Shown piece after piece: positions 4,459 through 44,391 of a DNA stretch of 64,000 nucleotides. Source of the stretch: Eledone cirrhosa (lineage: Eukaryota); contig OZ024764.1 in NCBI GenBank assembly GCA_964016885.1, positions 1,116,001 to 1,180,000 of the forward strand. Reading direction: 5' to 3'. The translations under genes were made by a program, and so were the position numbers. Every line of letters starts with the position of its first letter. Position 1 is the first letter of the stretch. The notes beneath the pieces were generated by a model that worked only from the letters and a program-made list of their open reading frames with translations, did not search any database and was not told the DNA's origin.

Positions 4459-4680
4459 ATGTCGACGGAAGATTCTGTGAGGGTTGGCAGTGGTGATGGT
4501 AGCTGTGAAAAGGACGGGCAGGGACCGAGTAAAGGACCAGAAGGAGGTGAAAACAAACAGGACCAGGGACCAAAAGGGAAGGTTTTCACTAAAGAAGATA
4601 TTAAAGACCACAAAACCTGCAAAAGTTTGTGGTTGATTATTGACAACAAGGTTTACGATGTCACCGAGTTTATGGACGAG
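4459..4680 (+). CDS. cyb5: cyb5 coding exon 1 (74 codons)
   Basis: ATG at 4459; [17 protein letters not shown] typical of the b5 N-terminal half; donor GAG|GTAAGA at 4681. Confidence 0.95.
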
Positions 4681-14222: not shown

Positions 14223-17200
14223 GTGATAAAATACCAGGTGGACCATAACCCCACCAGAGTACGCGTTACTTGGGATAGTAGTATATATATCTAAAAAGAT
14301 TCAGGACCACGACAGCTGAGCTCCAGCCATTTCGACAGCTAGTTTGTCCCTGGGTCAAAAACATAAACACTTTTTTTCTTCTGTTTTTTCTTTGCTTGTT
14401 TCCTTAAAGTTTACCATCATTCCATTGGTATACATCTATTATGCAATATACACCTGAAGATGTCACCAGGTTCTTACACAACCTGGCCACTGAAATGTGT
14501 ATAGTGTTTAGAGTAATAAATAATTAAGGAAATTCAACATTTTTGACCTTCTGTAATTTCACTTTATAATACATTTACTCCGTTCCCGCACCTCCAACGT
14601 GATTCAACATAACGTTGAGTGCTTTTCTCATATTACATCATGATTAACATTGCAGAATGAATAATTCTACCCAGTGGTAAACCACCAAATTTAAATGTAT
14701 GTATATGTGTATGTATATATATATATATAATTAGACTTGGTGCTCTGAAATAGCAATCAATATATATATATATATATATATATGAATGTATATACAGTGT
14801 ATTTTGCAATACACTGTATGCTTAATTAAAAGCATTTTGAAGACCTTACGCTATTGTTTTAAAGTAGCGACATGTCACTTACTTCTTTTTTCAGCAAACA
14901 AAGGGAGATAAGCTGACAGATCTGTTGCATACTGTTGGAACTCTTCAGAGCTTACCACTCCCTTTGCTTGCTGAAAATTATGAATGTTGGATTCTTATAG
15001 AATTCCATAAGAATTTGTTTGCTGAAAAAAGAAATAACATAGTCACTACTTTAAAACAATAGTAACTATGTTACTTCTTTAAAATGCTTTTAATTAAGCA
15101 TACAGTGTATTGAAAAATACACTAGATATACATTCATATATATATATGGAGGCACATGGCTTAGTGGTTAGAGCATTGACCTTGCAATCAAAAGGTTGTG
15201 AGTTCAATTCTCAGACTGGATGATGTGTTGTTTCCTTGAGCAAGACACTTTATTTCACATTGCTCCAGTTTACTCAGCTGTAGAAATGAGATGATAGGGA
15301 CTGGGGTCCCTATCATTCCACTGCAAAGTGGTCGTAGAGGTGCCACGGCAAAAAAGCACCCAGCACTCACTGTAAATGAGGTTGGTATTAGGAAGGGCAT
15401 CCAGCTGTAGAAATCAAGCCAGAATCAGTTCCCGTCCCACCCTTGCAAGCAGGGAAAAAGCGGACGTAAAATGAAATGATGATGATGATGATGATATATA
15501 TATGTAAAAAGTAAACAGAAATAACAACACAATCAGTACAGTATATGGAAGGGATATATTAGGTTAACGCTTGATATAGCAGGAAGAGGGTCTTAACGTT
15601 TCGGACGCTAGTCCTTCATGAGAAATAAGATAGATTGAGGGGACGGGCGCAATGGAATTGGAAAAAAATGTCTTTAAATAAAAATAACAGGTCTATTCAT
15701 GTTGACATCTCTTATATATATATATTTATATATATATAATATGTGTGTGTGTGTGTGACCTGGCTTGAATCAGGGGGATAACCACAGTAAGTAAGATACT
15801 CAATACGCAGTAGAGTATATACAATCTATATATATAAAACTGTGGTTGTCTGTCTGTCTATCGATTTTTGGCACACATCTCCTCTTAGAATCTCTCACGG
15901 AATTGCACCGAAATTGCTATACTTGTACATTGAGCCCTAGCGAAGACATCGGAAAAAAAAAATTTCAAATTGACCCACCCTATGTGACGAAATCGAATAT
16001 AATGTATCGATTTTTGAGCGTAAGTGATCAGTTATTTCCCTTTGTTCTGTTTACATTGAGCGTCTTACGTAAAAAATTACGCTGGCTTTCTCAGTCTTTG
16101 TTAATAAATAACCAGTGCAGTTTCTATCCCCAGCATCCTCTTTTGTTATAACATTGGGGTTATCGTTATGTTTTCTTAACTTCATAAGGCATATTGTTGG
16201 TTGAGGGAATATTAATCAAAAACACCACATGCAAGTCTGCACAGTAGACACTACAGTTTTTAAGCCAAAAAAGAAACTTAACATTGTAACTTTAACACAG
16301 CTACTGAGCGACCCCGTTTTGCTTCATTTCCATTTAAAAGCATTTTAAAACAATATTTTTACTTGAAAACAAGTCTATTTAAAGACTACGTAAAACAAGC
16401 AAATATTTCGTCGTTAGGCGTGCAGACAGACAGTCGTGCAGATAGACAGTCGTGCAGAGAGGTGATATAGGCGTGCAGACAGACAGTCGTGCAGAGAGGT
16501 GATATAGGCGTGCAGACAGACAGTCGTGCAGAGAGGTGATATACGCGTGCAGACAGACAGTCGTGCAGAGAGGTGATATACGCGTGCAGACAGACAGTCG
16601 TGCAGAGAGGTGATATAGGCGTGCAGACAGTCGTGCAGAGAGGTGATATAGGCGTGCAGACAGACAGTCGTGCAGAGAGGTGATATACGCGTGCAGAGAG
16701 GTGATATAGGCGTGCAGACAGACATAACTGATAATTTGGTTACGCTAATGTTTTTCTCTGCGTTGCAGTGTTTACATTTTCGATCTTTGTTAATAAATAA
16801 CCAGTGCAGTTTCTATCCCCAGCATCCTCTTTTGTTATAACATTCGGGTTATCGTTATGTTTTCTTAACTTCATAAGGCATATTGTTGGTTGAGGGAATA
16901 TTAATCAAAAACACCACATGCAAGTCTACACAGTAGACACTACAGTTTTTAAGCCAAGAAAGAAACTTAACATTGTAACTTTAACACAGCTACTGAGCGA
17001 CCCCAAGTAACGCTGGGCTTTACTGCTAGTATCTAATATAGAAATGGCTTCTACAGGGCTAGAACTGCTTCATTCGAAAGAAATCACCAGGAAAGCCTTA
17101 ATGATTTCCTTTGAATGAAACAGTTTTAGTCCTGTAGAAGCCATTTTATATTATTATCGTCAAGTGTGAAATTTGTGCAATCTGACCTGGACACAATGCA

Positions 17201-18297
17201 ACAATGGATCGCAGACTGGCAACTCAAGCTAGCTGTGGACAAGTGCACCACCATGCATTTTGGGAGGAAAAACCCAGCGTCCACATATTCCCTCCACAGC
17301 ACTAATATCAAGAAGTCTTCCTGTGAACGTGACCTGGGCATTACGGTCGGCAGTGATTTGCGTTGGACGAAGCACGTCTCTAAAATTGTCAAGAAGGCCG
17401 AGGGTGTCTTGGCATCACTCAGCAAGACCTTTGTCAGCCACTCTCCAGATATCTATTTAAGGCTGTATATAGCTATGGTGCGACCACACTTAGAATTTGC
17501 ATCACCAGTCTGGAAGCACTATCTTGCTCAGAACATTGACCTCCTGGAAACTGTTCAGAGACGTGCAACCAAGCGAATACCCTCCATCAGGCATCTACCA
17601 TACTCTGAACACCTTACTTCCCTGGGTATGGATACATTGAAGCTCCGACGTCTGGCAACTGACTTGGTAAACACCCACAAAATTATTAACCATCTCGCCA
17701 ACAACAACCCCAAACACTTTTTTGAATTCCATGTGTCTAACACACGTGGACATGCCTACAAAGTCAGAAAACAGCACAGCTTCCATGACTTTCAGAAACA
17801 TTTTTTCATGCTCAGAGTTGCTGAAGCATGGAACAAACTACCTGCATAGTCAATGGAAAGAGACACAATGTAGTTATTAATAAGAGTTGAAATGAATGCA
17901 TGAACTATTTCACAGCTCTAGCATCACTCCTTCATAGTCAGCCTATTTTAGCCTACCCTCATATATTTATTTATATTGAATTCTACTCGTCTACAATGTA
18001 ATAACTTCATTACACAGATACCAGTCAACTGAGCTCCATATATATATATATTTATTGCTGTTTTATATATACTACTACACCACCTGTGTCACACTAGAAC
18101 ACCTGTGTCACACTAGACCCCCTGTGGCACACTACCCCACCTGTGACACACTAGTTGTGACCTGTTGGTTCATGTTGACTTAAAAATAATTTTTAAATAA
18201 TTAGAATATACACAGACGTATATAATGTGAAATGACACTGGAAGGCCTATATATATACGTGCGTGTATGAATATATATAAATGTGTGTGTATATATG

Positions 18298-20393: not shown

Positions 20394-23300
20394 TAGAATT
20401 GGCTGTGTAGTTGCAAGTTAAGGGAGCTTAAAATGGAGTGAGAATAAGAAGTAAGAACGGGGGGGGGGGGGTTTCCTCATCAGTTGTCTACTGGGGGTCT
20501 CGGATATTTCAAAGCTTTAAAGACAAGATATCTACGTGTGTATATCTATAATATAATAAAGTAAGGAGTGCGGGACTGTGTCCAGAATATATATTTTAAT
20601 CCCGTTAGTAAAATAAGTTGGATTACTTAGAAAAAATAATTGTTTCTACTATTGGCACAAGGCCACCAATTATCCAGTACATTACTGGTACTTTATTTTA
20701 TCGACCCCGTAAGGATGAAAGGCAACCTCGGCGGGATTTGAACTCAGATCGTAAAGGGACGTAACTATGCTGGAAAGCATGGCGTCCGACCCTAAATAAT
20801 TGTTTCTACTTTAGGCACAAGGCCAGCAATTACCCAGTGCATTACTGGTACTTTATTTTATCGACCCCGTAAGGATGAAAGGCAAAGTCAACCTCGGCGG
20901 GATTTGAACTCAGATCGTAAAGGGACGTAACTATGCTGGAAAGCATGGCGTCCGACCCTCTACCGATACTGCCATTCCGACCCTAAATAATGAATGAATA
21001 TTACATTATTTATCTACTAAATTTCGTAGCTGTTGATTAAACATAAATTTTCTTACAGTGGTACCCGGCGTTGCACGGGATAAGGTATTTTGGAATGCAG
21101 GCCGCCAACAGACCTAATCGTGGAAAAACTGCATGCCTGGACAATATGTAAAGAAAATAAACCAAATGGCTGGATAATCTTTAAGATTTTCCTTGATGAA
21201 GAAGGTGTTCACCTAATGCGGGCCCTAGGGGATCAAGAAAATGAATTTTTTTTATGTGCATAATATGACTTGAAATTTCGGGAAAATCGGCTAGACGTAA
21301 CGCCTAAAAAAAAAAACTAAAAAGCTGAAAAAAACGCAGTTTTTCACCTAATGCGGGCCCAAGGGCATGAACATTTTTTATGTGCATGAAACTCCCTGAA
21401 ACATAAGTAATACACATGTAAAGTTTGAAAAAAATCGGTTGGGTACTTCTCGAGTTTTAGGGATTCAAACTCACAGACAAACACACACACACACATCCTC
21501 AGTTTTATATATATAGATGATTGCTTATTTTAAGATTCACTTCTTTTAAAATGTTCAAATGTCAACACTTCCAGTTAGCATCCGTTATATCATAACACTT
21601 ATTACATCGCTTTTATAAACATCCATATATTTGCATCATTATATAAGGTTTCATTACATGTCACCGTAATCCAGTTTATATATAATATCATCTTATTTAA
21701 TGTATCATGGATTACTTTACTGATTACATAAGACAGTGTAACACAGTCTCTCTTCAGTTTCTGTGTATATTGTCAATTACGATTTTATTTGATGTATCAT
21801 ATCTACATGTATATATCATCATCATCATCATCATTTAATGTCTATCTTCCACGCTAACATGGGTTTAGTATATTTGCATATAATATCAATATGCACACTA
21901 CACGTGCTAGCAGAAAACCATCCAAATGGTGGTTTTCTGCTAATATATATAAATAGATATTGAAATAAACTTTTCCGTATTTTTCAGCACCCTGGAGGTG
22001 AAGAAGTTTTGTTGGACCTTGGGGGTAAGTAAAGTATTTTTTTTTTTTTTTTTTTTTCCAACTCTTCACATATTTTATATTTAGCAACCAGAACCAGCAA
22101 GGTCCTGCCAGAAGTAACCAACTCCAACTGGTCTAGCTGGACCAGTTGGAGTCAGCTGCTTCTGACAGGACCTCGCTGGTGGCGGGAGTGTTTCAGGACT
22201 TTGGCCCCCACGACCCTCCCAGGAATATGTGGGCGAAGAAGTAGTATTTGTCATATCATTTTTATGTTTTGCAGCCATTATATATGAGAGTGAAAGAGCA
22301 CCATAAACTTATAAAAGCTTAGCTACTGGTAGCGTGTAACCCAGTACAACCTGTCACATACATGGTCGGGTCATCGGCGACTAAACTGGCAACCCCACCA
22401 AGCTTACTTGATGAGGAGGGTGATTTTGGACACCCTGCAGGACAAAAAACAAAACCTGACAAAGGGCAGAACTCGTAAGAGTCAGCGGCCATCAAAAAAA
22501 AAAATTTCTGCCAAATCAATGGGTGGCAGTAGTTCCAGCTGCATTGAAGGACTGGTGTAGGGGTTCTGAGAACAATGTGGCTTTGCAGATGATCAATGGA
22601 AATTGACAATGGAAAGGTGCTCCTGCTCGAGTTAGAAGAGAACTATTGACCTTCAGGAGAAGCAGTGACCCCTGGTTGTATTCAGCAACCAAAACAAATA
22701 TGAAGTACATCAAATCCAATGCTCCTAGGGGCAGCCCTGGTTCTTCTTATTTGCAAGTGTAAACCTGGCCAGATTAGATTAGATGTAGGACTTAAGCCAG
22801 CCCTCATCATAGCAGTAGTAAGAAGAGTTTCTCAACCCAAACAGTGACACCTAAGGCTCCATGAAGTGCAAACATGGATAAATTCATACAATGGGGTGGA
22901 ACAAGGCCCCTCATATCTCTAGTAAAGCTCTACATTCTGGGGAAAACCTTTGAAGAAGAAGCAACTACAATGAAAGAAATGAAACAACCATGCTTCATTG
23001 GCTGTGCAATCTAGGTGTGAGAGAAAGGCAGAGCTTGGGTGAACTGAGGGAGGAGCTGGGCTTAAGAGGGATCTGAGGTGGTGTGTAGGAGAGGAGACTA
23101 TGCTGGTATGGACATGTGATGTGTATGGATGATGATTGATGGGTGAAGAAGTGGTAGGAAATCCCAGTGGAAGGAAGCTGCAGTAGAGGTAGACCAAGAA
23201 AGACCTGGACAGAGAGAAGACTGCACTGGTATGGACATGTGATGTGTATGGATGATGATTGCTGGTGAAGAAGTGGTAGGAAATCCCAGTGGAAGGAAGC

Positions 23301-26300
23301 TGTAGAAGAGGTAGACCAGGAAAGACCTGGGCAGAGAGAAGACTGCACTGGTATAGACATGTGATGTGTATGGATGGTGATTGATGGGTGAAGAAATGCC
23401 AGGAAATCCCAGTGGAAGGAAGCTGCAGTAGAGGTAGACCAAGAAAGACCTGGGCAGAGAGAAGACTGCACTGGTATGGACATGTGATGTGTGAAAAAGT
23501 GCTGGAAATGCCAGTAGAAGGAAGCCACAGTAGAGGTAGACCAAGGAAGACCTGGGCAGAGGCGGTGAGAGCTGACCTCAAATCACTGAGATGGTGACAA
23601 AGGAACGCAGCTAATGGAGAAATGCTGTGCTGAGAAGGACCCATCCAACCCATGCAACCATGGAAAAATAGACGTAAAACGATGATGATGATGATATATC
23701 AGTCAGTGGGTACCTCTTAACCCAATATACACCCAACTCCACACATAATATTGTTTGTCTATGGCCAACAATATCATGTATCGCAAAATAATATCACATA
23801 TCAAGCAAATGCCTGAGCTTGAAGCTTTTTTAAGTGAGGAAAGGCTTCGCACAGAGCCAGCCCCACTCTCTGAACATCAAATGTATTTACCCAAAAAGGG
23901 AACTGGTTGACATCGTTGGGTGTAAACAAAGTCACAGGTTTTATGTCGGTGACCTTCTAGAGAGATGTCTTAATGATGAATAGGAGTCTCTCACTACATC
24001 AAAAAAAAACACACATACATATATGGTGGCTACCAACTCGTTTTCGAGTACGGCCACTACTTTATATCCATGTAGGAGAACCCCTACCGATGCGCTGAAC
24101 GAGTGTGACTTTTTAGTCCAGCCAGCGACTTGAAAACTCTGGTACAAACACTACACTTGTGACAATTATTGACACATAGTGCTGGGCCCATGGTACCATG
24201 TGACGACAAGTGCAGAGAGATCTCCAGATATAAAGCAATGCCTGTGCCATGAAGCTTTTATAGTGAGCAAAGGCACTGCACAAAGCCAGTCCCACTCTCT
24301 TAACCAAGATGATATTTACCAAAAAGAAGAACAAGTCAACATCATTGGATACCATCAGGGTCGCAGGTGTTATATCAGAGTTTTCCTTCTCCTAGAATTC
24401 TGCCTTGACAAAGGCTAAGGGGTCATCTCTCCCAGTGGTTTTGGATGGCCATTGACTCTTAAGAGCTCCTTTGCCCTTTGACAGGTTTTGTTTTTAGTCC
24501 TGCAGGATGTCCAAAGTCACCCTCCTCACCAAGAAACCTTGGTGGAGTTGCCAGTTTAGTCGCCAACGACCCGACCATGAGACAGGTTGTACTGGGATAC
24601 ATACATACATATATATATACATATATACACACTGTTATTTATATATTACTAAAACTCTGTGATTGCTTGCTTGCTTCTCTGTACTGTAATACAGCGACAA
24701 GGGCGCATAATGGGAAAATACTTTGAAAGGAAGTTGACCCTGAAATGGGAATATAAATGGAATAAAACAAGTTTCGCGTAAATCGGAGCACGGGTTCCCG
24801 AGAATTGGGGTTTTTCTGGGTACCTTCATAAATAGAGAGACAGAAAGATAGAGAGGGAGAGGAGACAGGGAAGGAGAATAGAAGAGAGAGAGAGAGAGCT
24901 GGTGGTGTTGTTGTGTGTCTATATATATATGTGTGTGTGTGTCTACGACCAGTGTAAATAGATCAGACACCCATATATATATATATACACGGTCATGAAG
25001 GTCACAGAAAAAGTAATAGCGCAACTAATCAGAGAGAGAATTGATCTAGATGAAATGCAGTTTGGGTTTGTGTCAGGCAAAAGTACCACAGACGCTCTTT
25101 TCATTGTACGACAACTACAGGAGAAGTACCTAGCTAAAAGTAAACCCCTATACTTAGCCTTTGTTGACTTGGAGAAAGCCTTCGACAGAGTCCCCCGTTC
25201 CATTATCTGGTGGGCTCTTAGAAAACTAGGTGTTGATGAATGGCTTGTGAGAGCCATACAAGCCATGTATAAAGAAACAGTCAGCAAGGTTAGAATTAAC
25301 AACGAATATAGTGAAGAGTTTAGCGTAAAAGTTGGTGTCCATCAGGGCTCTGTTCTTAGCCCCCTACTATTTATTATTGCCCTTCAGGCTATAACAGAGG
25401 AGTTCAAGACCGGCTGCCCATGGGAACTCCTATACGCAGATGATCTAACGCTCATAGCTGAATCAATGGCCGAACTAGAGAAGAAATTCCAAACATGGAA
25501 GCACGGCCTAGAATCAAAAGGCCTTAAAATTAACCTGGCTAAGACTAAAGTTCTAGTTTGTAGGAAAGAAAATAAGGTGGCGGTCCCTTCCGGGAAATGG
25601 CCATGCTCAGTGTGTAGGAAAGGCGTAGGTAGAAACTCCATTTTATGTCCCAAATGCAAAGTATGGGTGCATAAAAGATGTAGTGGGATCACAGGTAAGC
25701 TAACTAAGAACAGATTTTACATGTGACCGGTGCTCTGGTGCAATAAGTAGCAGCAAGTGCCCACAAAATACTAGCTCTTTCAATTGCGCAGAGGGTTCTA
25801 TAGAAATAGTGGACAGCTTCCGTTACCTGGGTGACAAAATCAGCAGTGGTGGAGGGTGCTCAGAAAGTACAGTAGCTAGAGTCAGAACTGGATGGAAAAA
25901 GTTCAGAGAGCTTATACCACTATTAGCCGCTAGAGGGTTCTCCCTAAAAATGAAAGGCAGGTTATACGATGCCTGCATACGAACAGCAGTGCTGCATGGC
26001 AGTGAGACCTGGGCATTGTGTGCAGAGGATATACGCAGACTAGAGAGGAACGAAGCTTGCATGCTCCGCTGGATGTGCAATAGTAATATACGTGAACGGC
26101 TAAGCATAAACGAACTAAGGAAAAAATTAGAAAAAATAAGAGGGATCAGATGTTGTTTGCTCGAGAGAAGGCTACGTTGGTACGGTCACGTGATGCGCAT
26201 GAAAGACGACAGCTGTATAACAAAGTGCAGGGCAATAAAGACAGACGGTAGCCACGGAGTAGGCAGACCCAGAAAAACCTGGGACGACATGATAAATTCC

Positions 26301-26897
26301 GACCTCACACGCTTACACCTCTCCAAGACAATGTCACTGGACCGAGACCTTTGGCGGTACTCAGTAATAGAGAAGACCCGCCTTACCTAAATACAAAGTA
26401 AAAACCTACTACAGTCAGTAGGCATCTCTATCAAAACACACCCCCGTCCCACCACCCACACCCCATCCACACCGCCCCTTTCAATGTAAAGTTATGTTGG
26501 TACCACAACATCCAGGCCGAAACAAATGAGATCGTGTAGGTGTCACGACAAAAAAACACACAGTCCACACTGTAATGTGGCCGTGTAGGCGACACGGTAA
26601 AACCTCCCAGCCCCACACTGTAAATGTGGTTGGTGTTAGGAAGGGCATCCAGCTGTAGAAAACCCGCCAGACAGTCCACGCTGTAATATGGCCGTGTAGG
26701 CAACACAGTAAAAACCTCCCAGCCCCACACTGTAAATGTGGTTGGTGTTAGGAAGGGCATCCAGCTGTAGAAAACCCGCCAGACAGTCCTATGCGAGCAA
26801 GACAACCACTCTTGCCTCAAGTGGGAAAACCCCCGTCCAAACCCATGCAAGTGTGGAACACGGACGCTAAACCTTGATGATGATGATATATAAATAT

Positions 26898-26937
<40 letters not shown>

Positions 26938-29900
26938 GGGCCTTCCAGTTTCATTTCACATTATATACATATATACTCTTTTACCTGTTCCGCCATCCAG
27001 CTGAGGCCATGTTGGGGCACCACCCTTGTTGCTACACATTCTATCTCCAGCCTTTGTTGGTTGGCCACTGGTGCAAGAGGGAGTTTGTTGTTGTTGCTGC
27101 CCTTAGGTTACCTTAGTACCGTGCTGTGGGCTCATCTGAGACCCTGGATAGCAGGGTGTCGATATGTTTCTTGAAAACATCCACGTCCACACCATGCAGA
27201 TCTCTCAAATCCCTTGGCAGCTTGTTGAAGAGTTGAGGGCCCTTGAACTTCAGGCTATTGCAATATCTGCTCCTTATTCTAGATGTGGGAGACGGGACCT
27301 TAGGCACCACACAGTGACGTCCTGTTCGGGGGTTGGTCCAGCTCCCAATACAACATCTGTGTATATTTTAATTATTTAAAAATTATTTTTAAGTGAACAT
27401 GACCCAACAGGTCAAGGGTGGTCTAGTATATATATATTGATTATTTTATTTTGTTTTACATCCAGGGACTGACGCAACCGAACCCTTTGATGATGTTAGC
27501 CATTCCACCGATGCCAGGGAGATGATGGAGAAATATTATATTGGTGAGCTACATGATGTGAGTGTCTAGCTACTTGTTTATATCATGTTTGCCTATGGCT
27601 GAGTGAGACAAAAAAATAAGTAAAAAAATAAATCACCCAGGGGCGCCTTCTGTAGACAACAAAATTAACACTAAAGTGTCAACTAGCATAATTGATATAG
27701 GAAGTTAAGATAACAATGTGGTGAATATGTGAGAGAAAATATTAAATGTGGTGTAACCCTTTAGTATTTACATTACTCTATATATACTATTGTATTTTCA
27801 CAGTAAAGGCTTTATCTCACATAACATTTACACTACTCTATATATACTATTGTATTTTCACAGTAAAGGCTTTACCTCACATAATACCTCACATAACATT
27901 TACATTACTCTATATATACTATTGTATTTTCACAGTAAAGGCTTTACCTCACATAATATTTACATTACTCTATATATACTATTGTATTGTCACAGTAAAG
28001 GCTTTACCTCACATAATATTTACATTACTCTATATATACTATTGTATTGTCACAGTAAAGGCTTTACCTTACATAATATTTACATTACTCTATATATACT
28101 ATTGTATTGTCACAGTAAAGGCTTTACCTTACATAATATCTTACATAATATTTACATTACTCTATATATACTATTGTATTGTCACAGTATAGGCTTTACC
28201 TCACATAATATCTCACATAACTTTTACATTACTCTATATATACTATTGTATTTTCACAGTAAAGGCTTTACCTCACATAATATTTACATTACTCTATATA
28301 TACTATTGTATTGTCACAGTAAAGGCTTTACCTCACATAATATTTACATTACTCTATATATACTATTGTATTGTCACAGTAAAGGCTTTACCTTACATAA
28401 TATCTTACATAATATTTACATTACTCTATATATACTATTGTATTGTCACAGTATAGGCTTTACCTCACATAATATCTCACATAACTTTTACATTACTCTA
28501 TATATACTATTGTATTTTCACAGTAAAGGCTTTACCTCACATAATATCTCACATAACATTTACATTACTCTATATATACTATTGTATTTTCATCAATGTC
28601 TAGTGGATCAGAGGGGGTACATTTGAAAATTTTACCCTATATTTACATGTTTCTATCTTAGTCTTTCTTTCTATTAACACAGGATGACAAAACAAAGAAG
28701 ACTAAAGTAAGTATCATTATTATTATTATTATTATTATTACAAGGGCGATGGATTGGCGGTATCGGTAGAGGGTCGGACACCATGCTTTACAGCACAGAG
28801 TTACAGCCCTTTATGATCTGAGTTCAAATCCCACTGAGGTTAACTTAAAGGGTTGATCAAATAAAGTACCAGTAATGAACTGGGATTAATATTGTCAACC
28901 TTCGCCTTCCTCTTCGTTCCAAGTTCAAATCCTGTCGAGGTTAACTTTGCCTTTCATCCTTACGGGGTTGATAAAATAAAATACCAGTAGTGCACTGGGG
29001 TCGATTTAATCGACTTTCCCCTCCCCCAAAATTGCTGGCCTTGTGCCTCTACTAGAAACAATTATTATTACAAGCTGTCAAAAATGATGACTAATTGTAA
29101 TATCTATACATAATATAAAAAAGAGAAGTTTGTTGGTTGCCTGGTTCCTTCACACTCACACAAGGGATACAAACATACAAACACAGTCAATGTGTGTAGC
29201 CAAATCACTACACATACACACACACATCTGTGACGAATCTTAGAACGCTGGACTTCTATAGTTTCTCACCCCTCCTTCCTCAGTCATCACGTAAGTGTTT
29301 GTGTATTAGACACCCCCTCCTTCCTCAGTCATCTCCAGGCTATTGCAATATCTGCTCCTTATTCTAGATGTTTGTGTATTAGACACCCCCTCCCTCCTTC
29401 CTCAGTCATCACATAGATGTTTGTGTATTAGATACCCCCTCCTTCCTCAGTCATCACATAGATGTTTGTGTATTAGACAACCCCTCCTTCCTCAGTCATC
29501 ACATAGATGTTTGTGTATTAGACACCCCCCCCCCCCTCCTTCCTCAGTCATCACATAGATGTTTGTGTATTAGATACCCCCTCCTTCCTCAGTCATCACA
29601 TAGATGTTTGTGTATTAGACAACCCCCCTCCTTCCTCAGTCATCACATAGATGTTTGTGTATTAGACAACCCCCTCCTTCCTCAGTCATCACATAGATGT
29701 TTGTGTATTAGACACCTCCCTCCTTCCTCAGTCATCACAGATGTTTGTGTATTAGACACCTCCCTCCTTCCTCAGTCATCACATAGATGTTTGTGTATTA
29801 GACACCTCCCTCCTTCCTCAGTCATCACATAGATGTTTGTGTATTAGACACCTCCCTCCTTCCTCAGTCATCACATAGATGTTTGTGTATTAGACACCTC

Positions 29901-30610
29901 CCTCCTTCCTCAGTCATCACATTGATGTTTGTGTATTAGACACCCTCTCCTTCCTCAGTCATCACATAGATGTTTGTGTATTAGGCACCCCCCCTTCCTT
30001 CCTCAGTCATCACATAGATGTTTGTGTATTAGACAACCCCCCCCTCCTTCCTCAGTCATCACATAGATGTTTGTGTATTAGACACCCCCCTCCTTCCTCA
30101 GTCATCACACTATCGTCTGAATTCAAATCGTAATATCGAATCTATGAGATTTTGATATTATTTATTTTGAGAACAATACCTTAACATAAGTATGAGCGGC
30201 CAGTTACAGCCTATTTCAATAGAAAGAGGTGGGGGAATTGTGGCTGGATATGGCTGGTTTAAATGCTAAAGGGTTACATAAGTAGACCTGCCAACCTTAC
30301 CATAAACCTAATGAGCATCTGTATTACATAGATAACCTTCCAAACCACCCTAAATCTATTAAGAAAACAATAGTTAAAGATATTGTTATATTTGGGGAGG
30401 GCCATGTTGTTATAATATTGCCAGAAAAATATAGTAAAACACACTCACTGTTTGGTTTGGTTTTCCCTTCAGTTTATTTTCATATTTTACTGTCTAACCC
30501 ATGCTAACATGGAAGAATGGACGTAAAACGGTGATGAGGATGATGATGATGATGATTTCTATAAATAATTTAGCTGGCAATCAATGTTTATCATTGATTG
30601 ACCAACAGTT

Positions 30611-32035: not shown

Positions 32036-33444
32036 TTGTTTCTACTTTAGGCACAAGGCCAGCAATTACCCAGTGCATTACTGGTACTTTATTTTATCGA
32101 CCCCGTAAGGATGAAAGGCAAAGTCAACCTCGGCAGGATTTGAACTCAGATCGTAAAGGGACGTAACTCTATGCTGGAAAGCATGGTGTCTGACCCTCCA
32201 CCGATACTGCCAATCCACCGCCCATATATATATATATATATATTAATGGTGTATTACAATATCTAAATGCAAATATGTATATATGGGTGTGTGTATTATC
32301 ATCATCATTTAACATCCATCTTCTACACTGGCATGGGTTGGACAGGTTTGTCCCATTTAGTGGCAAGTTGAGTCGGGTGGCTGTGTCTTGCTCAATATAG
32401 GGGAGTCTCTGGCAGGTTTTCTACGGCTGGATGCCCTTCCTAGTGCCAACCTCATTGACAGTGTGGACTGGGAGCTTTTTGCAAGTCTCCTACACAACCA
32501 CTTTACAGTGTGGACTGGGTTTGTGTATATATATGTATGTGTGTACATGTATGTGAGTGAATATATGTGTATTTATGTATATGTTTGCACCCAGCCCTCA
32601 CTGTAAAGTGGTCGTGGAGGTGCCACGGCAAAAAAAGCACCCAGCCCTCACTATAAAGTGGTCCTGGAGGTGCCACAGCAAAAAAGCACCCAGCTCTCAC
32701 TGTAAATGAGGTTGGTGTTAGGAAGGGCATCCAGCTGTAGAGATCAAGCCAGAATCAGTTCCCGTCCCACCCTTGCAAGCAGGGAAAAGCGGACGTAAAA
32801 TGAAATGATGATGATGATGTTTATTTGTCAACATATGCTCCATCTAGGTCAGTACACTTCTGTAAATGTTGATACCAGCCAGCTGTGTAAAACAGGGAGC
32901 CATGTGAATTGAACCATGTCAGAGCAGCTTTTTTTACATCTTCAACCTCATCTCTTCCATGACTTATCCATTTGTAGGTTGTTGATTTCTTTAGGACATT
33001 GTCCCCATAACGGCCATCCGAAAGTGTGTAAATATGTATATAGACATGTACCGCACGGTTAAACCACTGGAAGTGAAGGACCCCTAGCCTTTGTCAGGGC
33101 CTTCTTCTAGGAGAAGGTAACTCAGGAAACTGGGATAACTCCCATATAAAACCTGCGACTCAGTAGTTACAGATGATGTTGATCTTTTCTTCTTTTCAGG
33201 TTATAGCTACTGTCTCTCAGTGGGATTGGCTCAGTGCAGTCTTTCCTCACTTTAAAACATATCTTCACACACAGGCATTGCACGATAGAATTAATTAATA
33301 ATTATTAATAATTGTTTCTACTTTTGGCACAAGGCCAGCAATTATCCCAGTGCATTACTGGTACTTTATTTTATCGACCCCGTAAGGATGAAAGGCAAAG
33401 TTAACCTCCGTGCAATGGCCTTACTCGATAACGAGGGAGAAGCC

Positions 33445-33487
<43 letters not shown>

Positions 33488-33890
33488 CAATCACACATAA
33501 TATATTATGTTTGTCTTTTTATACCATTGCAGCCTCCCATATCAACAGTAACGGAGCCGTGCTCACAAAGGTAAATTGTTTTTTTAAAATTATTTTCTAT
33601 TATTTTTGTGTGTTATTTGCTATACAGAAAAGGGAGTTTGTAGGCATTCTATGTTGTGCTAAACAAAGGGTTAAAGTCTGCCCAAAGCTATCTTAACTCT
33701 CTTAAGACCCCCTCCTGTCACCAATGACCAGGGATTTGTACCTAGAAAGTTCCCCTCTGAGGCACAAGTCCGGGCAAGGGTGTTTGTGGAAGACCACCAG
33801 TCACCCATGTATACCAGTCTCTCCTCTCCACCCCACTGATGTTGTCCAAGAGAAAGGTAATGGCTGATACAGCTTGGTACCAGTGACATC

Positions 33891-34365: not shown

Positions 34366-35316
34366 TACACTATATATATGTTGTCCAAGGGAAAGGTAAT
34401 GGCTGACACAGCTTGGCACCAGTGACATTACAACATATATATATATTATATACACTACTATATATATACTTTATACACCATATATATATACACTACACTA
34501 TATATGTTGTCCAAGAGAAAGGCAATGGCTGCTACAGCTTGGTACCAGTGACATCACAACATATATATATATACACTACACTATATATGTTGTCCAAGAG
34601 AAAGGCAATGGCTGCTACAGCTTGGTACCTGTATATACATTACATACATATTATATATACAATTTATACACTACATTTAGACTATATATACACTATACAT
34701 TATAAACATATCATATATATATATACTTTATATACCATATATACACTACACTATATATGTTGTCTAAGGGAAAGGTAATGGCTGATACAGCTTGGTACCA
34801 GTGACATAGCATATATATATATATATGTAGAAGTTGTATTTAATTTGTTGGAATTCCGACATATATAAATGTTTATAACTGATATAGAGCACTCAACAGT
34901 TTACTGGAATAAATATTCCAAATATTAAATAAATGGAAACTATATTTATAAAACCATATTTATTTTATTATATATATTTCAAGGGCGACCAAGACAATAT
35001 TGGTGCGGCTTCATCAGATAAAATACAAAATTTGTTTTATAAATAAAGACGTTCCCATGGAAATCATAACCTTAACAAATTTCCATCCATTAAGGTTATG
35101 ATTACCATGGGTACGTCTTTATTTATAAAACAAATTTTGTATTTTATCTGATGAAAGCGCACCAATATTGTCTTGGTCGCCCTTGAAATATATATAATAA
35201 AATAAATATGGTTTTATAAATATAGTTTCCATTTATTTAATATCTTGATATATATATATATATATATATATAGTATAGACTTATTATATATATATATATA
35301 TATATAGTATAGACTT

Positions 35317-35859: not shown

Positions 35860-37929
35860 TAGACTTATTATATATATATATAGTATAGACTTATTATATA
35901 TACACAACATACACCTTATATACACTAGGTTTAGACTATATATACACTACACTGTATATAATGTTGTCCAAGGGAAAGGCGATGGCTGATACAGCTTGAC
36001 ATCAATGACGTCACAACATACTATATATACATTGTATACTTTGTATATACACTGTATACACACCATATATACACTATATATATATATATATACACTATAT
36101 ATGATGTTCTTCAAGGGAAAGGTAATGGCTGATACAGTTTGGCACCAGTGACATCACAACTCATTTCTACAGCTGAGTAAACTGGAGCAACGTGAAATAA
36201 AGTGTCTTGCTTAAGGATACAACACATCACCCAGTCCAAGAATTGAACTCACAACCTCACTATTGAAGCCCAATGCTCTAACCACTAAGCCATTTTCACA
36301 GTAAAGGATTTACTTCACATAATATCTCGCATAACATTTACATTACTCTATATATACTATTGTATTTTCACAGTAAAGGCTTTACCTCACATAATATCTC
36401 ACATAACATTTACATTACTCTATATATACTATTGTATTTTCACAGTAAAGACTTTACCTCACATAATATCTCACATAACATTTACATTACTCTATATATA
36501 CTATTGTATTTTCACAGTAAAGGCTTTACCTCACATAATATCTCACATAACATTTACATTACTCTATATATACTATTGTATTTTCACAGTAAAGGCTTTA
36601 CCTCACATAATATCTCACATAACATTTACATTACTGTGAAAATATAATAGTATATATAGAGTAATGTAAATGTTATGTGAGATATTATGTGAGGTAAAGA
36701 CTTTACTGTGAAAATACAATAGTATATATATAGAGTAAAGGCTTTACTTCACATAATATCTCACATAACATTTACATTACTCTATATATACTATTGTATT
36801 TTCACAGTAAAGGCTTTACCTCACATAACATTTACATTACTTTATATACACTAGACCACCAGTGACCCATTGGGTCACATTCACTTAAAAATAATTTTTA
36901 AATAATTAAAATATACATGTATATAATGTGAAATGAAATTGGAAGACCTATATATATACGTGTGTGTATATATTTATATATGTGTGTATATATATATGTG
37001 GGTGTCTCTATGTCTCTCTTTCAATCTACTCTCTCACAACCACTATCTCTTCCTCTCTATCCTTCTCTCTCTCTATTTATGAAGGTACCCAGTAAACCCC
37101 ATATCTCGGGAACCCTTGCTCCGATTTACGTGAAACTTGTTTTATTCCATTTGTATTCCCATTTCAGGGTCAACTCCCTTTCAAAGTATTTCCCCATTAT
37201 GCTCCCTTTTGGCTGTATTACATTACAGACAAGCAAGCAAGCAAGCAATCACAGTTTTAGTATTATATGGATTTATTTATTCAGTTTTATTATCTCATGT
37301 ATTGTTTTATTATTGTATTGCCCATAGGGTGGTGAATTGGCAGTATCGGTAGAGGGTCGGACACCGTACTTTATGGACTGAGGTCAAATCCCGCTGAGGT
37401 TAATTTTGCCTTTCATCCTTGCAGGGTCGATAAAATAAAGTACTGGTAACGTACTGCAGTTGATTTTTATCGACTTTCCCGTCCACCCAAATTACTCGCC
37501 TTTCAAAGTATTTTTCCATTAGGTGCTGTTTTGGTTGTATTAAATTTATTAAATTATTAAAGGCGGTAGATTGGCAGTATCGGTAGAGGGTTGGACGCCA
37601 TGCTTTGACACATAGAGTTACGGCCCTTGCCATTCTGAGTTCAAATCCAGCCGAGGTTAACTTTGCCTTTCATCCTTACAGGGTCGATAAAATAAAGTAC
37701 CAGTAATGTACTGGGTAATTGCTGGCCTTATGCCTAAAGTAGAAACAATTAAATTTATTAAATTACAGACAAGCAGACAACCACAGAGTTTTAGTATATA
37801 TATATATATATAATTGTTATTTTAATTTTCTCTTTCAGTTCCTGGAGCAATTGGTTTGTGCCCCTGGGGCTGGCTATCGCAGCAGCACTTCTCTACCGTT
37901 ATATGATGGTCTCCAAGGACATGTCGTAG
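4459..37929 (+). CDS. cyb5: Cytochrome b5, tail-anchored, 6 coding exons, 167 aa: join(4459-4680,21988-22024,27466-27557,28683-28706,33533-33570,37839-37929)
   Basis: Manual splicing gives [167 protein letters not shown]. It has the HPGG heme motif, axial His75/His99 24 residues apart, and a C-terminal WxNW-xP transmembrane anchor. All introns are GT..AG, phases 0,1,0,0,2 are consistent, and 504 nt is divisible by 3. Confidence 0.93.
5090..5155 (-). ncRNA. Type I hammerhead ribozyme motif (Penelope-like)
   Basis: Minus strand: UAUUUUAU CUGACGA AAGCGCA..UGCCCUU GAAA UAAAUA UA AUAAAAUA; 8-bp stem I. Confidence 0.7.
5821..6210. mobile_element. Palindromic hammerhead-bearing element (non-autonomous Penelope-like); right arm interrupted by a SINE fragment at ~6091-6165
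   Basis: Arms ~5821-5948 and ~6007-6210 are reverse complements, each with a CTGATGA..GAAA core facing outward. Confidence 0.75.
5857..5919 (-). ncRNA. Type I hammerhead ribozyme motif
   Basis: Minus strand: AUUAUAUUUUGU CUGAUGA GGACGUAC-UGUU-GUACAUCC GAAA UAUGUA UA AUAAAAUGUAAU; 12-bp stem I, 8-position stem II with one mismatch, minimal stem III. Confidence 0.85.
6313..7282 (+). mobile_element. tRNA-derived SINE family A with 14 tandem 49-bp internal units (6477-7167)
   Basis: A box TGGCTTAGTGG, B-box-like GAGTTCAATTC, CCTTGAGCAAGACACTT core, GGAAGGGCATC.AGCTGTAGAAA, (GAT)n tail. Confidence 0.9.
7873..8066 (+). mobile_element. tRNA-derived SINE family B
   Basis: GGATTGGCAGTATCGGTAGA head, GAGTTCAAATCCC, GCCTTTCATCCTTACGGGGTCGATAAAATAAAGTACCAG core, ends AGAAACAATTAT. 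Further copies at ~20636-20985(-), 28743-29068(+), 32035-32225(-), 33310-33410(-), 37325-37750(+), 41490-41745(+), 44424-44622(+), 45695-46008(-), 52035-52150(-). Confidence 0.88.
8185..8526 (-). mobile_element. SINE family A, full-length
   Basis: Reverse complement of the 15148-15493 copy. Confidence 0.9.
8578..8849. mobile_element. Palindromic element with two decayed hammerhead motifs
   Basis: Inverted arms both carry GAAACACGUGUC-ACC with stem II ccactgat/atcggtgg; cores are degenerate (CCGACAA on the minus arm, CAUGA on the plus arm). Confidence 0.65.
8881..11090. repeat. 40-bp minisatellite, ~55 units
   Basis: Unit ctgggtatttagtaccctaggttagctctacaatgtgtac. Confidence 0.97.
11093..11910. 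repeat. Trinucleotide low-complexity block (TAG/GTG, then CAC/CAA/ACT, then GTG/TAG)
   Basis: Direct reading; the poly-T/H/P/V ORFs here are artefacts. Confidence 0.85.
12041..12676 (+). mobile_element. Bipartite non-autonomous RTE derivative (~630 bp)
   Basis: The 5' part has RTE-5'UTR-like CTAGGAGAAGGAAAACTCTGA; the 3' part encodes a C2H2-like remnant [17 protein letters not shown]; flanked by (TA)n. Near-identical copies at ~24025-24600(-) and ~40125-40678(-); related pieces at 22320-22500, 33060-33290, 47360-47650 and 52270-52650. Confidence 0.75.
12941..13305 (-). mobile_element. SINE family A variant, 5'-truncated
   Basis: Same core and 49-bp unit, with an alternative 3' tail ending (GAT)n. 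Confidence 0.8.
14448..14509 (+). ncRNA. Hammerhead ribozyme motif, sense to cyb5 intron 1
   Basis: ACAC CUGAAGA ugucaCCAGGUU..AACCUGGccacu GAAA UGUGUA UA GUGU; the base of stem II has mismatches. Confidence 0.55.
14780..15140. mobile_element. Palindromic element with a decayed hammerhead (14903-14962, minus)
   Basis: Inverted arms (e.g. aatacactgtatgcttaattaaaagcattt / aaatgcttttaattaagcatacagtgtatt). The minus strand reads UAAGCU CUGAAGA GUU..AAC AGAUCUGUC AGCUUA, with the GAAAC apparently deleted. Confidence 0.6.
15148..15493 (+). mobile_element. SINE family A, full-length reference copy
   Basis: GGAGGCACATGGCTTAGTGG head to (GAT)n tail, with a single 49-bp unit. Confidence 0.92.
15825..17029 (+). 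mobile_element. Non-autonomous Helitron
   Basis: Starts A|TCTATATATATAAAAC; ends with hairpin CCCA..TGGG then CTAG|T; internal ~215-bp direct duplication (16097-16314 / 16786-17004) and ~36-bp tandem repeat at 16416-16725. Confidence 0.8.
17166..17847 (+). mobile_element. CR1-like LINE ORF2 C-terminal fragment
   Basis: [13 protein letters not shown]...[42 protein letters not shown] motifs. Confidence 0.9.
18616..19099 (-). mobile_element. SINE family A with ~4 tandem 49-bp units
   Basis: Reverse complement of family A. Confidence 0.88.
19790..20325 (-). mobile_element. Fused fragments: L1/Tx1-like 3' ORF piece (~19977-20325) joined to an RTE RT piece (~19790-19976)
   Basis: The minus strand gives [24 protein letters not shown] (homologous to 43809-44121), then [25 protein letters not shown] (homologous to 25530-25690). 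Confidence 0.75.
21052..21517 (-). mobile_element. Non-autonomous Helitron
   Basis: Minus strand starts TCTATATATATAAAACTG; 3' hairpin CCCG..CGGG near 21065-21080 and a degenerate terminus. Confidence 0.65.
21988..22024 (+). CDS. cyb5: cyb5 coding exon 2 (37 nt, [12 protein letters not shown]+G)
   Basis: Acceptor ttttccgtatttttcAG; encodes HPGGEEVL; donor G|GTAAGT. Confidence 0.95.
22880..23695 (+). mobile_element. Decayed RTE 3' end with ~4 tandem copies of a ~120-bp coding segment
   Basis: [17 protein letters not shown] repeated; ends ccatgcaaccatggaaaa..gacgtaaaac(GAT)n. Confidence 0.8.
24985..26888 (+). mobile_element. 5'-truncated RTE-clade LINE (RT domain, frameshift near 25720) with 3' UTR and (GAT)n tail
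   Basis: [40 protein letters not shown], Cys-rich insert [35 protein letters not shown]; stop at 26390. Confidence 0.92.
26975..27356 (-). mobile_element. LINE ORF2 3'-end fragment (CR1/Jockey-group-like)
   Basis: [44 protein letters not shown], a typical LINE C-terminus. Confidence 0.65.
27466..27557 (+). CDS. cyb5: cyb5 coding exon 3 (92 nt)
   Basis: Acceptor ttgttttacatccAG; encodes [30 protein letters not shown]; donor GTGAGT. Confidence 0.95.
27757..28592 (+). repeat. Tandem array (60/72-bp units) amplified from the left end of a piggyBac-like MITE
   Basis: Begins CCCTTTAGTATTT; unit tttacattactctatatatactattgtattttcacagtaaaggctttacctcacataa. A similar array at 36293-36845 contains one inverted unit (~36634-36737). 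Confidence 0.85.
28683..28706 (+). CDS. cyb5: cyb5 coding exon 4 (24-nt micro-exon, DDKTKKTK)
   Basis: Pyrimidine tract plus acAG acceptor; donor GTAAGT; phase 0/0; corresponds to the short DD-starting linker exon of vertebrate CYB5. Confidence 0.82.
29268..30108. repeat. ~45-bp minisatellite with variable C-run
   Basis: Unit tagatgtttgtgtattagacac(c)nctccttcctcagtcatcaca, ~17 copies. Confidence 0.92.
31112..31190 (-). ncRNA. Full-size type I hammerhead fold with a GAAA-to-GGAA core change
   Basis: UCACCCA CUGAUGA GCAAGAAUU..AAUUUUGC GGAA CAGCU-GACCAA-AGUUG UC UGGGUGA; a partial inverted partner lies at ~31390-31435. Confidence 0.7.
33533..33570 (+). CDS. cyb5: cyb5 coding exon 5 (38 nt, [12 protein letters not shown]+AG)
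   Basis: Acceptor ttgtctttttataccattgcAG; donor AG|GTAAAT; phase 0 to 2 is the phase needed to join exon 6. Confidence 0.8.
34961..35025 (-). ncRNA. Type I hammerhead ribozyme motif
   Basis: UAUUUUAU CUGAUGA AGCCGCACCAA..UUGGUCGCCCUU GAAA UAUAUA UA AUAAAAUA. Confidence 0.75.
35140..35204 (+). ncRNA. Type I hammerhead ribozyme motif, sense to cyb5 pre-mRNA
   Basis: UAUUUUAU CUGAUGA AAGCGCACCAA-UAUUGUC-UUGGUCGCCCUU GAAA UAUAUA UA AUAAAAUA; palindromic stem III; predicted cleavage after 35196. Confidence 0.85.
35250..35902. repeat. Compound microsatellite: GTATAGACTTAT interspersed with variable (TA)n
   Basis: About 18-20 units read directly. Confidence 0.92.
36851..37268 (-). mobile_element. 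Non-autonomous Helitron, contiguous copy
   Basis: Minus strand ends GTGACCCAATGGGTCAC hairpin..GGTCTAG|T; the 5' part matches 24640-24900. Confidence 0.7.
37839..37929 (+). CDS. cyb5: cyb5 terminal coding exon (membrane anchor and stop)
   Basis: Acceptor ttttctctttcAG; [32 protein letters not shown] at 37927-37929. Confidence 0.92.
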
Positions 37930-41756: not shown

Positions 41757-44391
41757 TTATTGGCTCTCGACCAATTTTTCAACGCTAGGGGTAGCGTGCT
41801 CTCAGACACGAGGGGACAAAAGCCGTTGAAATGGGCCCCGGGTGGCGGAGGCGCGTCGTGGCAACAAAGCCACAACCCGGTCTTTGGCGAACTACGACGG
41901 GCACATGATACTCGATCCCGGGCAGATGTGTGTGGCTTTTCAGAGGCACTTTGCTCAGCTGTTTGGGGGCAATGGCGAGCCACACCGCGGAATGGACTTC
42001 AGTGCCTACCTCAACGGACTGCCGCGGCTCTCGGCCACTGAGGCGGAGTGTTGCAAAAGGCCGATAACAGCTGCTGAAGTACGGGAGGCAATGACTAGCT
42101 GCACAATGGGTAAATCACTTGGTTTGGATGGTCTGCCCTACGAATTTTACATACATATGCCAGACTTGTTCGAAGACGTCTTGGCAGACGTCTACTGCAA
42201 CTGGCAGCAGAGCGAGAGAATTCCCAGCTCTGTGAGCCGAGGAGCGGTGGCGCTGCTGAGAAAGGATCCGAGCAAGGGGGATAACATAGAAAATTTCAGG
42301 CCCATAACTCTGCTAAACACAGACTTCAAGATTATTTTGGCTAAGGTGTTAGCAAAGAGGTTGGCGCTTGTCGTTGGTGGTCTGGTGGGAGAGGCGCAAA
42401 CATGCGCCATTCCAGACAGATCCATCCACGACAACCTCCACCTCATGCGATACATCGTAGAGAGGGTAGCTAGGGAACCTGGCATGGGTGGGTCTTTGAT
42501 CAATTTAGATCAGTCAAAAGCTTTCGATAGGGTTGACCATCGTTATCTGGCAGCAGTCCTAAGAGCAGCTGGCTTTGGGCCTGTCTTCAGAGGCTGGATT
42601 GCTGCCATGCACTGCGACATCTCTGTGGTGAGAGCGAATGGTTCTTTTCGGAACCATTCAACATCATGCGCTCGATCCGCCAGGGATGTCCTCTCTCGTC
42701 CTTGTTGTACGTATTGACTCTTGAGCCATTACTGCACGAGCTGGAGACATTGAGGGGGGGTCCCGCGTGAACTAGGATGTGGAAGAACAGTGTCAGCTTA
42801 TGCAGACAACATCACCGTAGTGGTGTCGAGCATCAAACACATCGAGGCGATCGGCACCACACTAATAGAATTCGAGGTAGTGACAGGAGCAATGATCAAC
42901 CAGGAAAAATCAGTAGGCCTGCAACTCAGAACCTGGAGAGGCAGGTCCATGCCGCCCAACAGTGTCGTCGGGCACTGGACGGATGGACCGGTTAAATTGC
43001 TAGGGGTCTGGTTCGGTCCGGACCTCCAGACGGACAAAAACTGGGAGGAGGTCACGAGGAAGGTGTTTTCTCTCACCCAGAAATGGGCGAAGAGGAAGCT
43101 ATCCCTGAAAGGTCGAGCGGAGGTGGTGAATGCGTACATCGCGTCCGTCATCTACTACCGCCTGACCGTCGTGCCTTGTCCTAAGCCTCGCCTGACTGCA
43201 CTGGAGCGTTTGCTCTTTCGCTTTTTGTGGAAGGGACGTGCTCCGATGGTCAGGCAGTCCATCTGCTGTCAACACTCGCTACGCAGAGGACTGGGCATGC
43301 CGTGGCTGATGATGCGCAGACATGCACTCAGGCTACGACATCTCTTCCTCGACGGTCATCTGGTGTGTTCGCCCTCTGCTAGACACGTTTTCCCAGCTTG
43401 TCTCCTTGGCGGAGCTGCAGTCCTGGGTCAAGCGAAGACAGAGAGGAAGCGCTTGGAGACTAGAATGTGTTCAGGCGCTTGGAGCCCTCGACCAGTCGAG
43501 CAATACAATCGCTGGAAACTAAACCTTGGCGTTCTATAGAGGATTAGTGGAAGGAAAGAGCAACAACGTCCTTGGGCAGACTCTAGGCGTCGACGAAAAC
43601 CAACTAGCCAATCTCTTCGGGAGAACTTTTAGGCCAGGGCCCATGGACAACTTCCAGAAATCCCTGGCCTGGCAGTGCTACAGAGGAGCCTTGCCAGTTC
43701 GGGACAAACTCTACAGGCATGGAAGTGCCATCAGCCGAGATGCGCACAGGGCGATGAAACCATCCTGCACGCACTTGTCCGGTGTCCGAGCATCGCTGAT
43801 TTGTAGGTTTAAGCTGAACACCTGCTGTCACGTGTAGAACGGATCCGGCTATCAGCTGAGTCCATCGTGAAGATTGCCCCGCCCTCTTCCTTTAGTCGGG
43901 AAAGGCAGGCAGTTTTTATCTGCCTGGTGGCCATGGTAAAAGAGATTGTATGGTGGACACGTCTGAAAGGGTTAAGGACCGGTACTTTCCTTTTCGGTGA
44001 CACCCTCATTAACATTTTCAGGTTTCACCTGAAGAGGAAAATCAGGGTGGGGAGGGAAGTGCTGACCTCCAGCCAGTTTGTTGAAAGGTGGGTGAGAGAG
44101 GCAAGAATGGGTCTACCCTGAGCGTGTGCCTGTAGCATTGTAGGAGGAAAACTGGAAGAGGGCATTTGCCCTAGCGGTCAGGGTAACCATGGCTTTTCTT
44201 GTGGGCTTTCTCCACGAGCAACCCTTGGAGGTCTCTCCCCTATTGGGAATTTTTCATTGTTTCCTTTTGTTACACTCTGTTTTTGTTTTGTTTTTTTACA
44301 CGCAGAAATGCCCATTTCTATTGTCCTGTATTGTCCTATACCGTCCTTAATGTTATACTTTGTGTCAACCCTTGTGGTCAATAAAGAAAGC
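41757..44391 (+). mobile_element. 5'-truncated, frameshifted L1/Tx1-clade LINE
   Basis: GLDGLPYEFY, NFRPITLLNTDFKI, LDQSKAFDRVDH, SAYADNIT, LSLKGRA..VN motifs; ends AATAAAGAAAG in (ATT)n; both flanks are (ATT)n. Confidence 0.9.

What the first reader, a model, noticed from the sequence alone, without database searches (positions are those of the whole stretch)
27496..27602. Conserved Gly next to the second heme ligand is a genomic Ser (AGC) that one A-to-I edit would restore
Seen: exon 3 encodes [10 protein letters not shown]; the Ser98 codon is AGC (27498-27500) in the context U-A-G. Established: membrane cytochrome b5 proteins typically have F-E-D-V-G-H-S; A-to-I editing reads AGC as GGC (Gly); UAG is the preferred ADAR context; coleoid cephalopods recode extensively. 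Also seen: intronic ATGGCTGA (27595-27602) can pair with TTAGCCAT (27496-27503), and 27581-27594 pairs imperfectly with 27516-27527, a weak candidate editing-complementary sequence. Inference: restorative or tunable recoding of the heme pocket.
Basis: partly seen in the sequence, partly recalled or inferred. Interest (0 to 1): 0.7.

Follow-up and report, generated by a model that had tools for sequence, protein, structure and literature searches.

The report
Octopod cytochrome b5 Gly-to-Ser substitution
An ordinary electron-carrier gene has serine where most relatives have glycine next to a heme-binding histidine; other octopods share the change, so it is likely a tolerated old mutation, and nothing here shows that RNA editing reverses it.

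Summary
The sequence facts hold. A six-exon membrane cytochrome b5 has Ser98 (AGC, 27498-27500, U-A-G context) where 111 of 112 non-cephalopod relatives have Gly, and DNA contigs agree with the A. Octopus sinensis, O. vulgaris and Argonauta also have Ser and cuttlefish has Gly, so the site formally qualifies as a restorative candidate. Editing itself is unsupported.
- The proposed 8-bp intronic partner is at chance level (575 of 1000 shuffles; folding z 0.12).
- Of seven departures from highly conserved residues, five cannot be undone by A-to-G, including neighbouring Asp95.
- Ser also occurs here in environmental, probably fungal, b5 proteins, apparently by a separate origin.
- Published octopus data put editing of restorable adenosines at about 0.6-1% per neural tissue and under 0.2% in other adult tissues, mostly at low level.
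No RNA run was listed and site-level editing tables were unreadable, so editing is untested rather than refuted. Most likely this is a tolerated octopod-lineage substitution; I put strong restorative recoding at about 4-5%. The scan's earlier notes showed no matching finding.

The parts
4459..4680 (+). Cytochrome b5 exon 1 (aa 1-74, with a ~40-aa Gly/Glu/Lys/Pro-rich N-terminal extension)
   Evidence: Pfam PF00173 positions 1-31
21988..22024 (+). Exon 2, HPGG with first heme ligand His75
27466..27557 (+). Exon 3, with second heme ligand His99
   Evidence: PF00173 positions 45-73; aligns to solved b5 chains
27498..27500 (+). Ser98 codon AGC; A27498 in U-A-G context
27581..27602 (+).
28683..28706 (+). 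Exon 4
   Evidence: matches orthologue linker
28744..28778 (+). Copy of a dispersed repeat that can pair imperfectly with exon 3 (28 bp, site A unpaired); weak alternative partner
33533..33570 (+). Exon 5
37839..37929 (+). Exon 6, C-terminal hydrophobic anchor and stop
   Evidence: homologous segment is a long helix in the Argonauta model

Best explanation
This is the octopod orthologue of tail-anchored cytochrome b5, and its genomic Ser98 is likely an old, tolerated substitution that is translated as Ser. Shown: gene structure, both His ligands, Ser in four octopod proteins, Gly in cuttlefish and nearly all other close relatives. Inferred: a single G-to-A transition (GGY to AGY) was fixed on the octopod stem after the split from decapodiforms, as part of wider drift of the heme-edge helices (Q85L, A86G, E95D in three of four, D96N in Octopus). 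The protein would work as a normal bis-His electron shuttle with Ser at the end of the helix before His99, and editing of this A is absent or functionally negligible.
For: Ser is shared by this genome, O. sinensis, O. vulgaris and Argonauta, against Gly in Sepia pharaonis and an unnamed decapodiform-like protein. The tree groups the four octopod rows at 99/96 and joins them to the two Gly decapodiform-type rows at 95/85. Within residues 41-120 the window protein departs at 7 positions from a residue held by at least 90% of 112 other rows; only 2 of 7 (I48, S98) are A-to-G restorable, and E95D (Glu in 112 of 112) is not. 4 of 16 metagenome matches to a Ser-form motif are real b5 genes (Pfam check on two), two with the same GTT-AGT context, plus P0244. 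In a broader set the residue before the second His is Gly in only 73 of 121 scorable domains, with Asn 10, Gln 8, Ser 2, Ala 2 (282 of 403 motifs not scorable). In O. bimaculoides the fraction of restorable adenosines edited is 0.62-0.95% in four neural tissues and 0.03-0.18% in seven other adult tissues, and about 90% of restorative sites are edited below 20% (PMC6881472 supplement). The proposed partner helix is at chance level.
Against: Gly is very conserved among close relatives (111 of 112; rows are rich in mammalian type B). The change is of the editable kind, in the favoured context (3 of 153 coding adenosines are U-A-G). The genome has adenosine-deaminase-domain genes (12 matches at four loci; ADAR not told from ADAT). 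Restorable sites are edited about twice as often as synonymous ones. Octopus has a second potentially restorable change two codons away (D96N; codon not seen). All four environmental Ser codons are AGT, none the uneditable TCN, their kingdom is only inferred, and the AU test does not reject a single Ser clade (p 0.087). A repeat copy 1.25 kb downstream pairs with exon 3 better than 194 of 200 shuffles (post hoc).
Confidence: 0.84

Rival explanations
1. The site is edited at a low level (a few percent, neural tissue only) as one of many coleoid sites, with no real effect on the protein pool.
For: U-A-G context; A27498 is predicted paired in pre-mRNA folds, probability 0.73-0.99; restorable sites are enriched for editing and their median level is under 2.5% (PMC6881472).
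Against: Base rate about 1% per neural tissue; no unusual structure.
Confidence: 0.1
2. Strong restorative or tunable recoding: ADAR converts a large share of transcripts to Gly98, which allowed a harmful G-to-A change to fix in octopods. The duplex is supplied by the adjacent intron or by the downstream repeat at 28744-28778.
For: Ancestral Gly, octopod-wide Ser, favoured context, possible second restorable change in Octopus. The exon 3/repeat duplex is -36.6 kcal/mol, matched by 6 of 200 shuffles and 0 of 11 other exonic 41-mers, and appears in the minimum-energy fold of 27400-28900.
Against: In that duplex the site A is unpaired, and the repeat has a longer inverted partner at 32121-32228 (108 nt, 86%). 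Whole-gene best duplex is matched by 8 of 40 shuffles. Cytochrome b5 is broadly needed (established knowledge) whereas robust recoding in squid is 91% neural-type (PMC9068888 passages). Neighbouring uneditable changes exist.
Confidence: 0.045
3. Assembly error or private polymorphism.
For: The DNA runs are from one sample and contigs drop rare variants.
Against: Contigs match without differences and three other octopod genome-derived proteins have Ser.
Confidence: 0.01

Closest known systems
Octopod cytochrome b5 (O. sinensis XP_029652824.1; Argonauta hians GAB1602589.1; C-terminal part of O. vulgaris CAI9744474.1)
   Same: Same clade (99/96), same LLDLGG and VSHS motifs, up to 75% identity
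   Different: Longer N-terminal extension, Lys45 for conserved Leu, Asp96 where Octopus has Asn
Tail-anchored cytochrome b5 (PF00173; vertebrate CYB5A and CYB5B, PDB 1CYO, 1B5M)
   Same: HPGG and second His 24 residues apart, C-terminal hydrophobic anchor; the Argonauta model superposes at about 2.0 A
   Different: Ser for Gly before the second His; Asp for Glu three residues earlier; Leu-Gly for Gln-Ala
Restorative (harm-permitting) A-to-I editing in coleoids (Jiang and Zhang, PMC6881472; Shoshan et al., PMC8382921)
   Same: Editing of this A would give the ancestral amino acid, which meets the formal definition of a potential restorative site
   Different: No edit observed; most potential sites are unedited

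Membership tests
Tail-anchored cytochrome b5 | PF00173 domain | tested here: met
   exons 1 and 3 pass the Pfam cut-off
Tail-anchored cytochrome b5 | Two axial His, HPGG and second His 24 residues on | tested here: met
   His75 and His99
Tail-anchored cytochrome b5 | C-terminal hydrophobic anchor, no fused domain | tested here: met
   exon 6 translation; orthologue model helix 127-155
Tail-anchored cytochrome b5 | Heme binding and electron transfer | not testable with these tools
   needs protein assay
Restorative A-to-I recoding site | Genomic A whose change to G restores the ancestral residue | tested here: met
   AGC to GGC; Gly in decapodiform rows and 111 of 112 others; no named Nautilus or other mollusc outgroup
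Restorative A-to-I recoding site | A-to-G mismatch in RNA against DNA of the same individual | not testable with these tools
   no RNA holder listed; site tables unreadable
Restorative A-to-I recoding site | ADAR neighbour preference (5' U, 3' G; recalled) | tested here: met
   Ser15 has the same context
Restorative A-to-I recoding site | Double-stranded structure over the site beyond chance | tested here: inconclusive
Restorative A-to-I recoding site | Editable AGY codon and conserved flanks in sister species | not testable with these tools
   only proteins of other octopods were available

The most novel reading that the evidence does not exclude
An octopod-wide G-to-A change beside the heme ligand of cytochrome b5 is reversed by ADAR in neurons, using a retroposed repeat in intron 4 as the pairing partner, so tissues or temperatures tune the heme pocket of a core metabolic redox protein.
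Probability: 0.045. Interest if true: 0.5.

Novelty: new member of a known kind. Interest (0 to 1): 0.14.

Why it matters
As it stands it matters little: it shows that the Gly of the b5 VGHS motif is replaceable, and the Ser is already visible in public Octopus and Argonauta records. If strong editing were found, it would be a tractable test of the harm-permitting versus adaptive debate in a small soluble redox domain whose heme affinity and potential are easy to measure.

Tried and rejected
RNA evidence: no RNA holder listed, which says nothing about expression or editing. Editing tables: two Cell papers not held; source-data spreadsheets too large; no CYB5 or cytochrome b5 string in the readable Shoshan supplement; only a PDF listed for PMC7703385 (not opened). 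These unseen tables could decide the question. Transcript- or peptide-derived octopus b5: none seen in two supplements (in one search only the first two places per term were shown and the file was cut). Literature searches that gave nothing useful: cytochrome b5 + RNA editing + cephalopod, 0 papers; Gly62/His63, 0; motif and mutant searches, irrelevant hits; octopus + cytochrome b5, nothing on this residue in the listing. Homologue search with exon 3 alone failed. Long inverted repeats: none of the 25 longest of 256 pairs covers exon 3. Spliced-mRNA folds give no stable partner. Rfam: two chance hits below gathering score. AlphaFold of the Argonauta protein gives a normal b5 fold but cannot judge a single substitution. 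Atlas searches only confirmed the family. A first motif script had a regex slip and was rerun.

Full report
Observation. Exon 27466-27557 encodes [30 protein letters not shown], with AGC at 27498-27500 in T-A-G context. Six GT-AG exons between 4459 and 37929 give a 167-aa cytochrome b5 with His75, Ser98, His99 and a C-terminal hydrophobic segment. Exons 1 and 3 pass the Pfam PF00173 cut-off and exon 3 aligns to solved b5 chains with Ser against Gly. One contig in each of three runs of one sample covers 27385-27781 with no differences.

Phylogeny. O. sinensis and O. vulgaris read FDNVSHS, Argonauta FEDVSHS, and Sepia pharaonis and an unnamed decapodiform-like protein FEDVGHS. Among 121 proteins in hand after the residue was Gly 116, Ser 3 (all octopod), Val 1, truncated 1. 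A 28-row tree puts the window protein with the octopods (99/96) and these with the two Gly decapodiform-type rows (95/85); the bootstrap had not fully settled. Ser therefore most likely arose once on the octopod stem, and the site meets the formal definition of a potential restorative site (PMC6881472 sections read; PMC8382921 passages). No named Nautilus, gastropod or bivalve row was available, and codons in the other octopods were not seen.

Ser98 is not an isolated change. I aligned 112 non-cephalopod rows (dropped: three two-domain proteins and one truncated one; the set is rich in mammalian type B). Within residues 41-120 the window protein departs at 7 positions from a residue held by at least 90% of rows: K45, I48, D62, M72, D84, D95, S98. 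Only I48 and S98 could be restored by A-to-G; E95D replaces a Glu held in 112 of 112 rows and cannot be. Octopods also share Q85L and A86G, and Octopus adds D96N, which might be restorable. This looks like protein-level drift around the heme edge.

Ser is found elsewhere. A metagenome scan for the Ser-form motif gave 16 matches; 4 are b5 genes with HPGG upstream (L014, L015, L016, L022), all with AGT, and 12 are chance. L015 and L016 have the same GTT-AG context as the window. P0244 reads FDDVSHS. The three of these five that went into the tree form their own branch (100/99) and the label needs 2 changes, though the AU test does not reject one Ser clade (p 0.087). I read them as probably fungal from short introns in L015 and general appearance; this is inference. 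Fungi lack ADAR orthologues, although some ascomycetes edit by another route at the sexual stage (PMC4817773 abstract). In the wider family Gly precedes the second His in 73 of 121 scorable domains (282 of 403 motifs not scorable) and in 24 of 32 short proteins. That this position caps a helix and tolerates small polar residues is recalled; I found no paper on it.

The proposed partner strand. The 8-bp helix exists and is favoured locally (pair probability 0.35-0.99), but 575 of 1000 shuffles and 54 of 153 other coding adenosines have one as long within 110 nt; the regional fold has z 0.12. Within 500 nt, 22 of 153 overlapping control windows find as good a duplex. A better candidate is a dispersed repeat (7 copies in the window). 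The copy at 28744-28778 forms 28 pairs with exon 3 at -36.6 kcal/mol, matched by 6 of 200 mononucleotide shuffles and 0 of 11 other exonic windows (best -35.4), and it appears in the minimum-energy fold of 27400-28900. This test was post hoc, the site A is unpaired, the repeat has a longer inverted partner, and gene-wide the best duplex is matched by 8 of 40 shuffles. It is a lead only.

Base rate. In O. bimaculoides 0.62-0.95% of restorable adenosines are edited per neural tissue and 0.03-0.18% in other adult tissues; about 90% of restorative sites lie below 20% editing (PMC6881472 supplementary file 1, read whole). In squid 91% of robust recoding sites are neural-type (PMC9068888 passages). 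Editing level depends on local context and structure (PMC7703385 passages). Allowing a several-fold boost for context and conservation, my estimate (not computed) is about 10% for low-level editing and 4-5% for strong editing. Deaminase-domain genes are present in the genome. A broadly needed protein would be Ser98 in most tissues in any case (inference).

What could not be tested. No RNA run was listed, and the published site tables were not held or were too large; they may settle the question directly. Searches for a paper on this residue or on b5 editing in cephalopods found none. Earlier scan notes had nothing near this place and nothing matching by words; notes on ADAR-scarred retroelements in this genome are context only.

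Verdict. A real, octopod-shared Gly-to-Ser substitution in an ordinary cytochrome b5, most likely tolerated as such. The editing idea is cheap to test but has no positive support here.

Noticed in passing
window 4591-4593 (codon 45): Lys45 (AAA) replaces a Leu held by 106 of 112 other rows and by all other cephalopod rows; specific to this genome and not A-to-G restorable.
   Followed up: no
window 4459-4578: N-terminal Gly/Glu/Lys/Pro-rich extension of about 40 aa, longer than in Octopus and Argonauta; Ser15 is also AGC in U-A-G context.
   Followed up: no
G000:C17:4678338-4681554 (L005, L007, L027, L028): A second small cytochrome b5-like gene with FEDTGHS (Gly kept, Val to Thr) and no intron between HPGG and the second His.
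   Followed up: partly
P0001, P0003: Octopus proteins have Asn for the Asp held by 112 of 112 other rows two residues before the Ser, a second possible G-to-A change; codon not seen.
   Followed up: no
P0003 (CAI9744474.1): O. vulgaris record fuses a retinol dehydrogenase-like part, with an internal duplication, to cytochrome b5; probably a gene-model artefact.
   Followed up: no
window 24962-26390 and 41830-43539: Broken non-LTR reverse-transcriptase frames (PF00078), one in intron 2 and one downstream of the gene; a weaker one at 17130-17849.
   Followed up: partly
window 27765-28592 and 29365-30109: Tandem arrays of 60-72 bp and 46 bp units in introns 3 and 4; the first has inverted copies near 36630-36733.
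   Followed up: no
window 34917-35248: Near-perfect intronic hairpin, 159-nt arms, 96% complementary, 14-nt loop; a more plausible ADAR substrate than exon 3.
   Followed up: no
window 7882, 20957, 28751, 32195, 37334, 37568, 44432: Dispersed repeat in both orientations that is partly complementary to exon 3.
   Followed up: partly
L014, L015, L016, L022, P0244: Environmental cytochrome b5 genes with VSHS, apparently one or more separate origins of the same substitution.
   Followed up: partly
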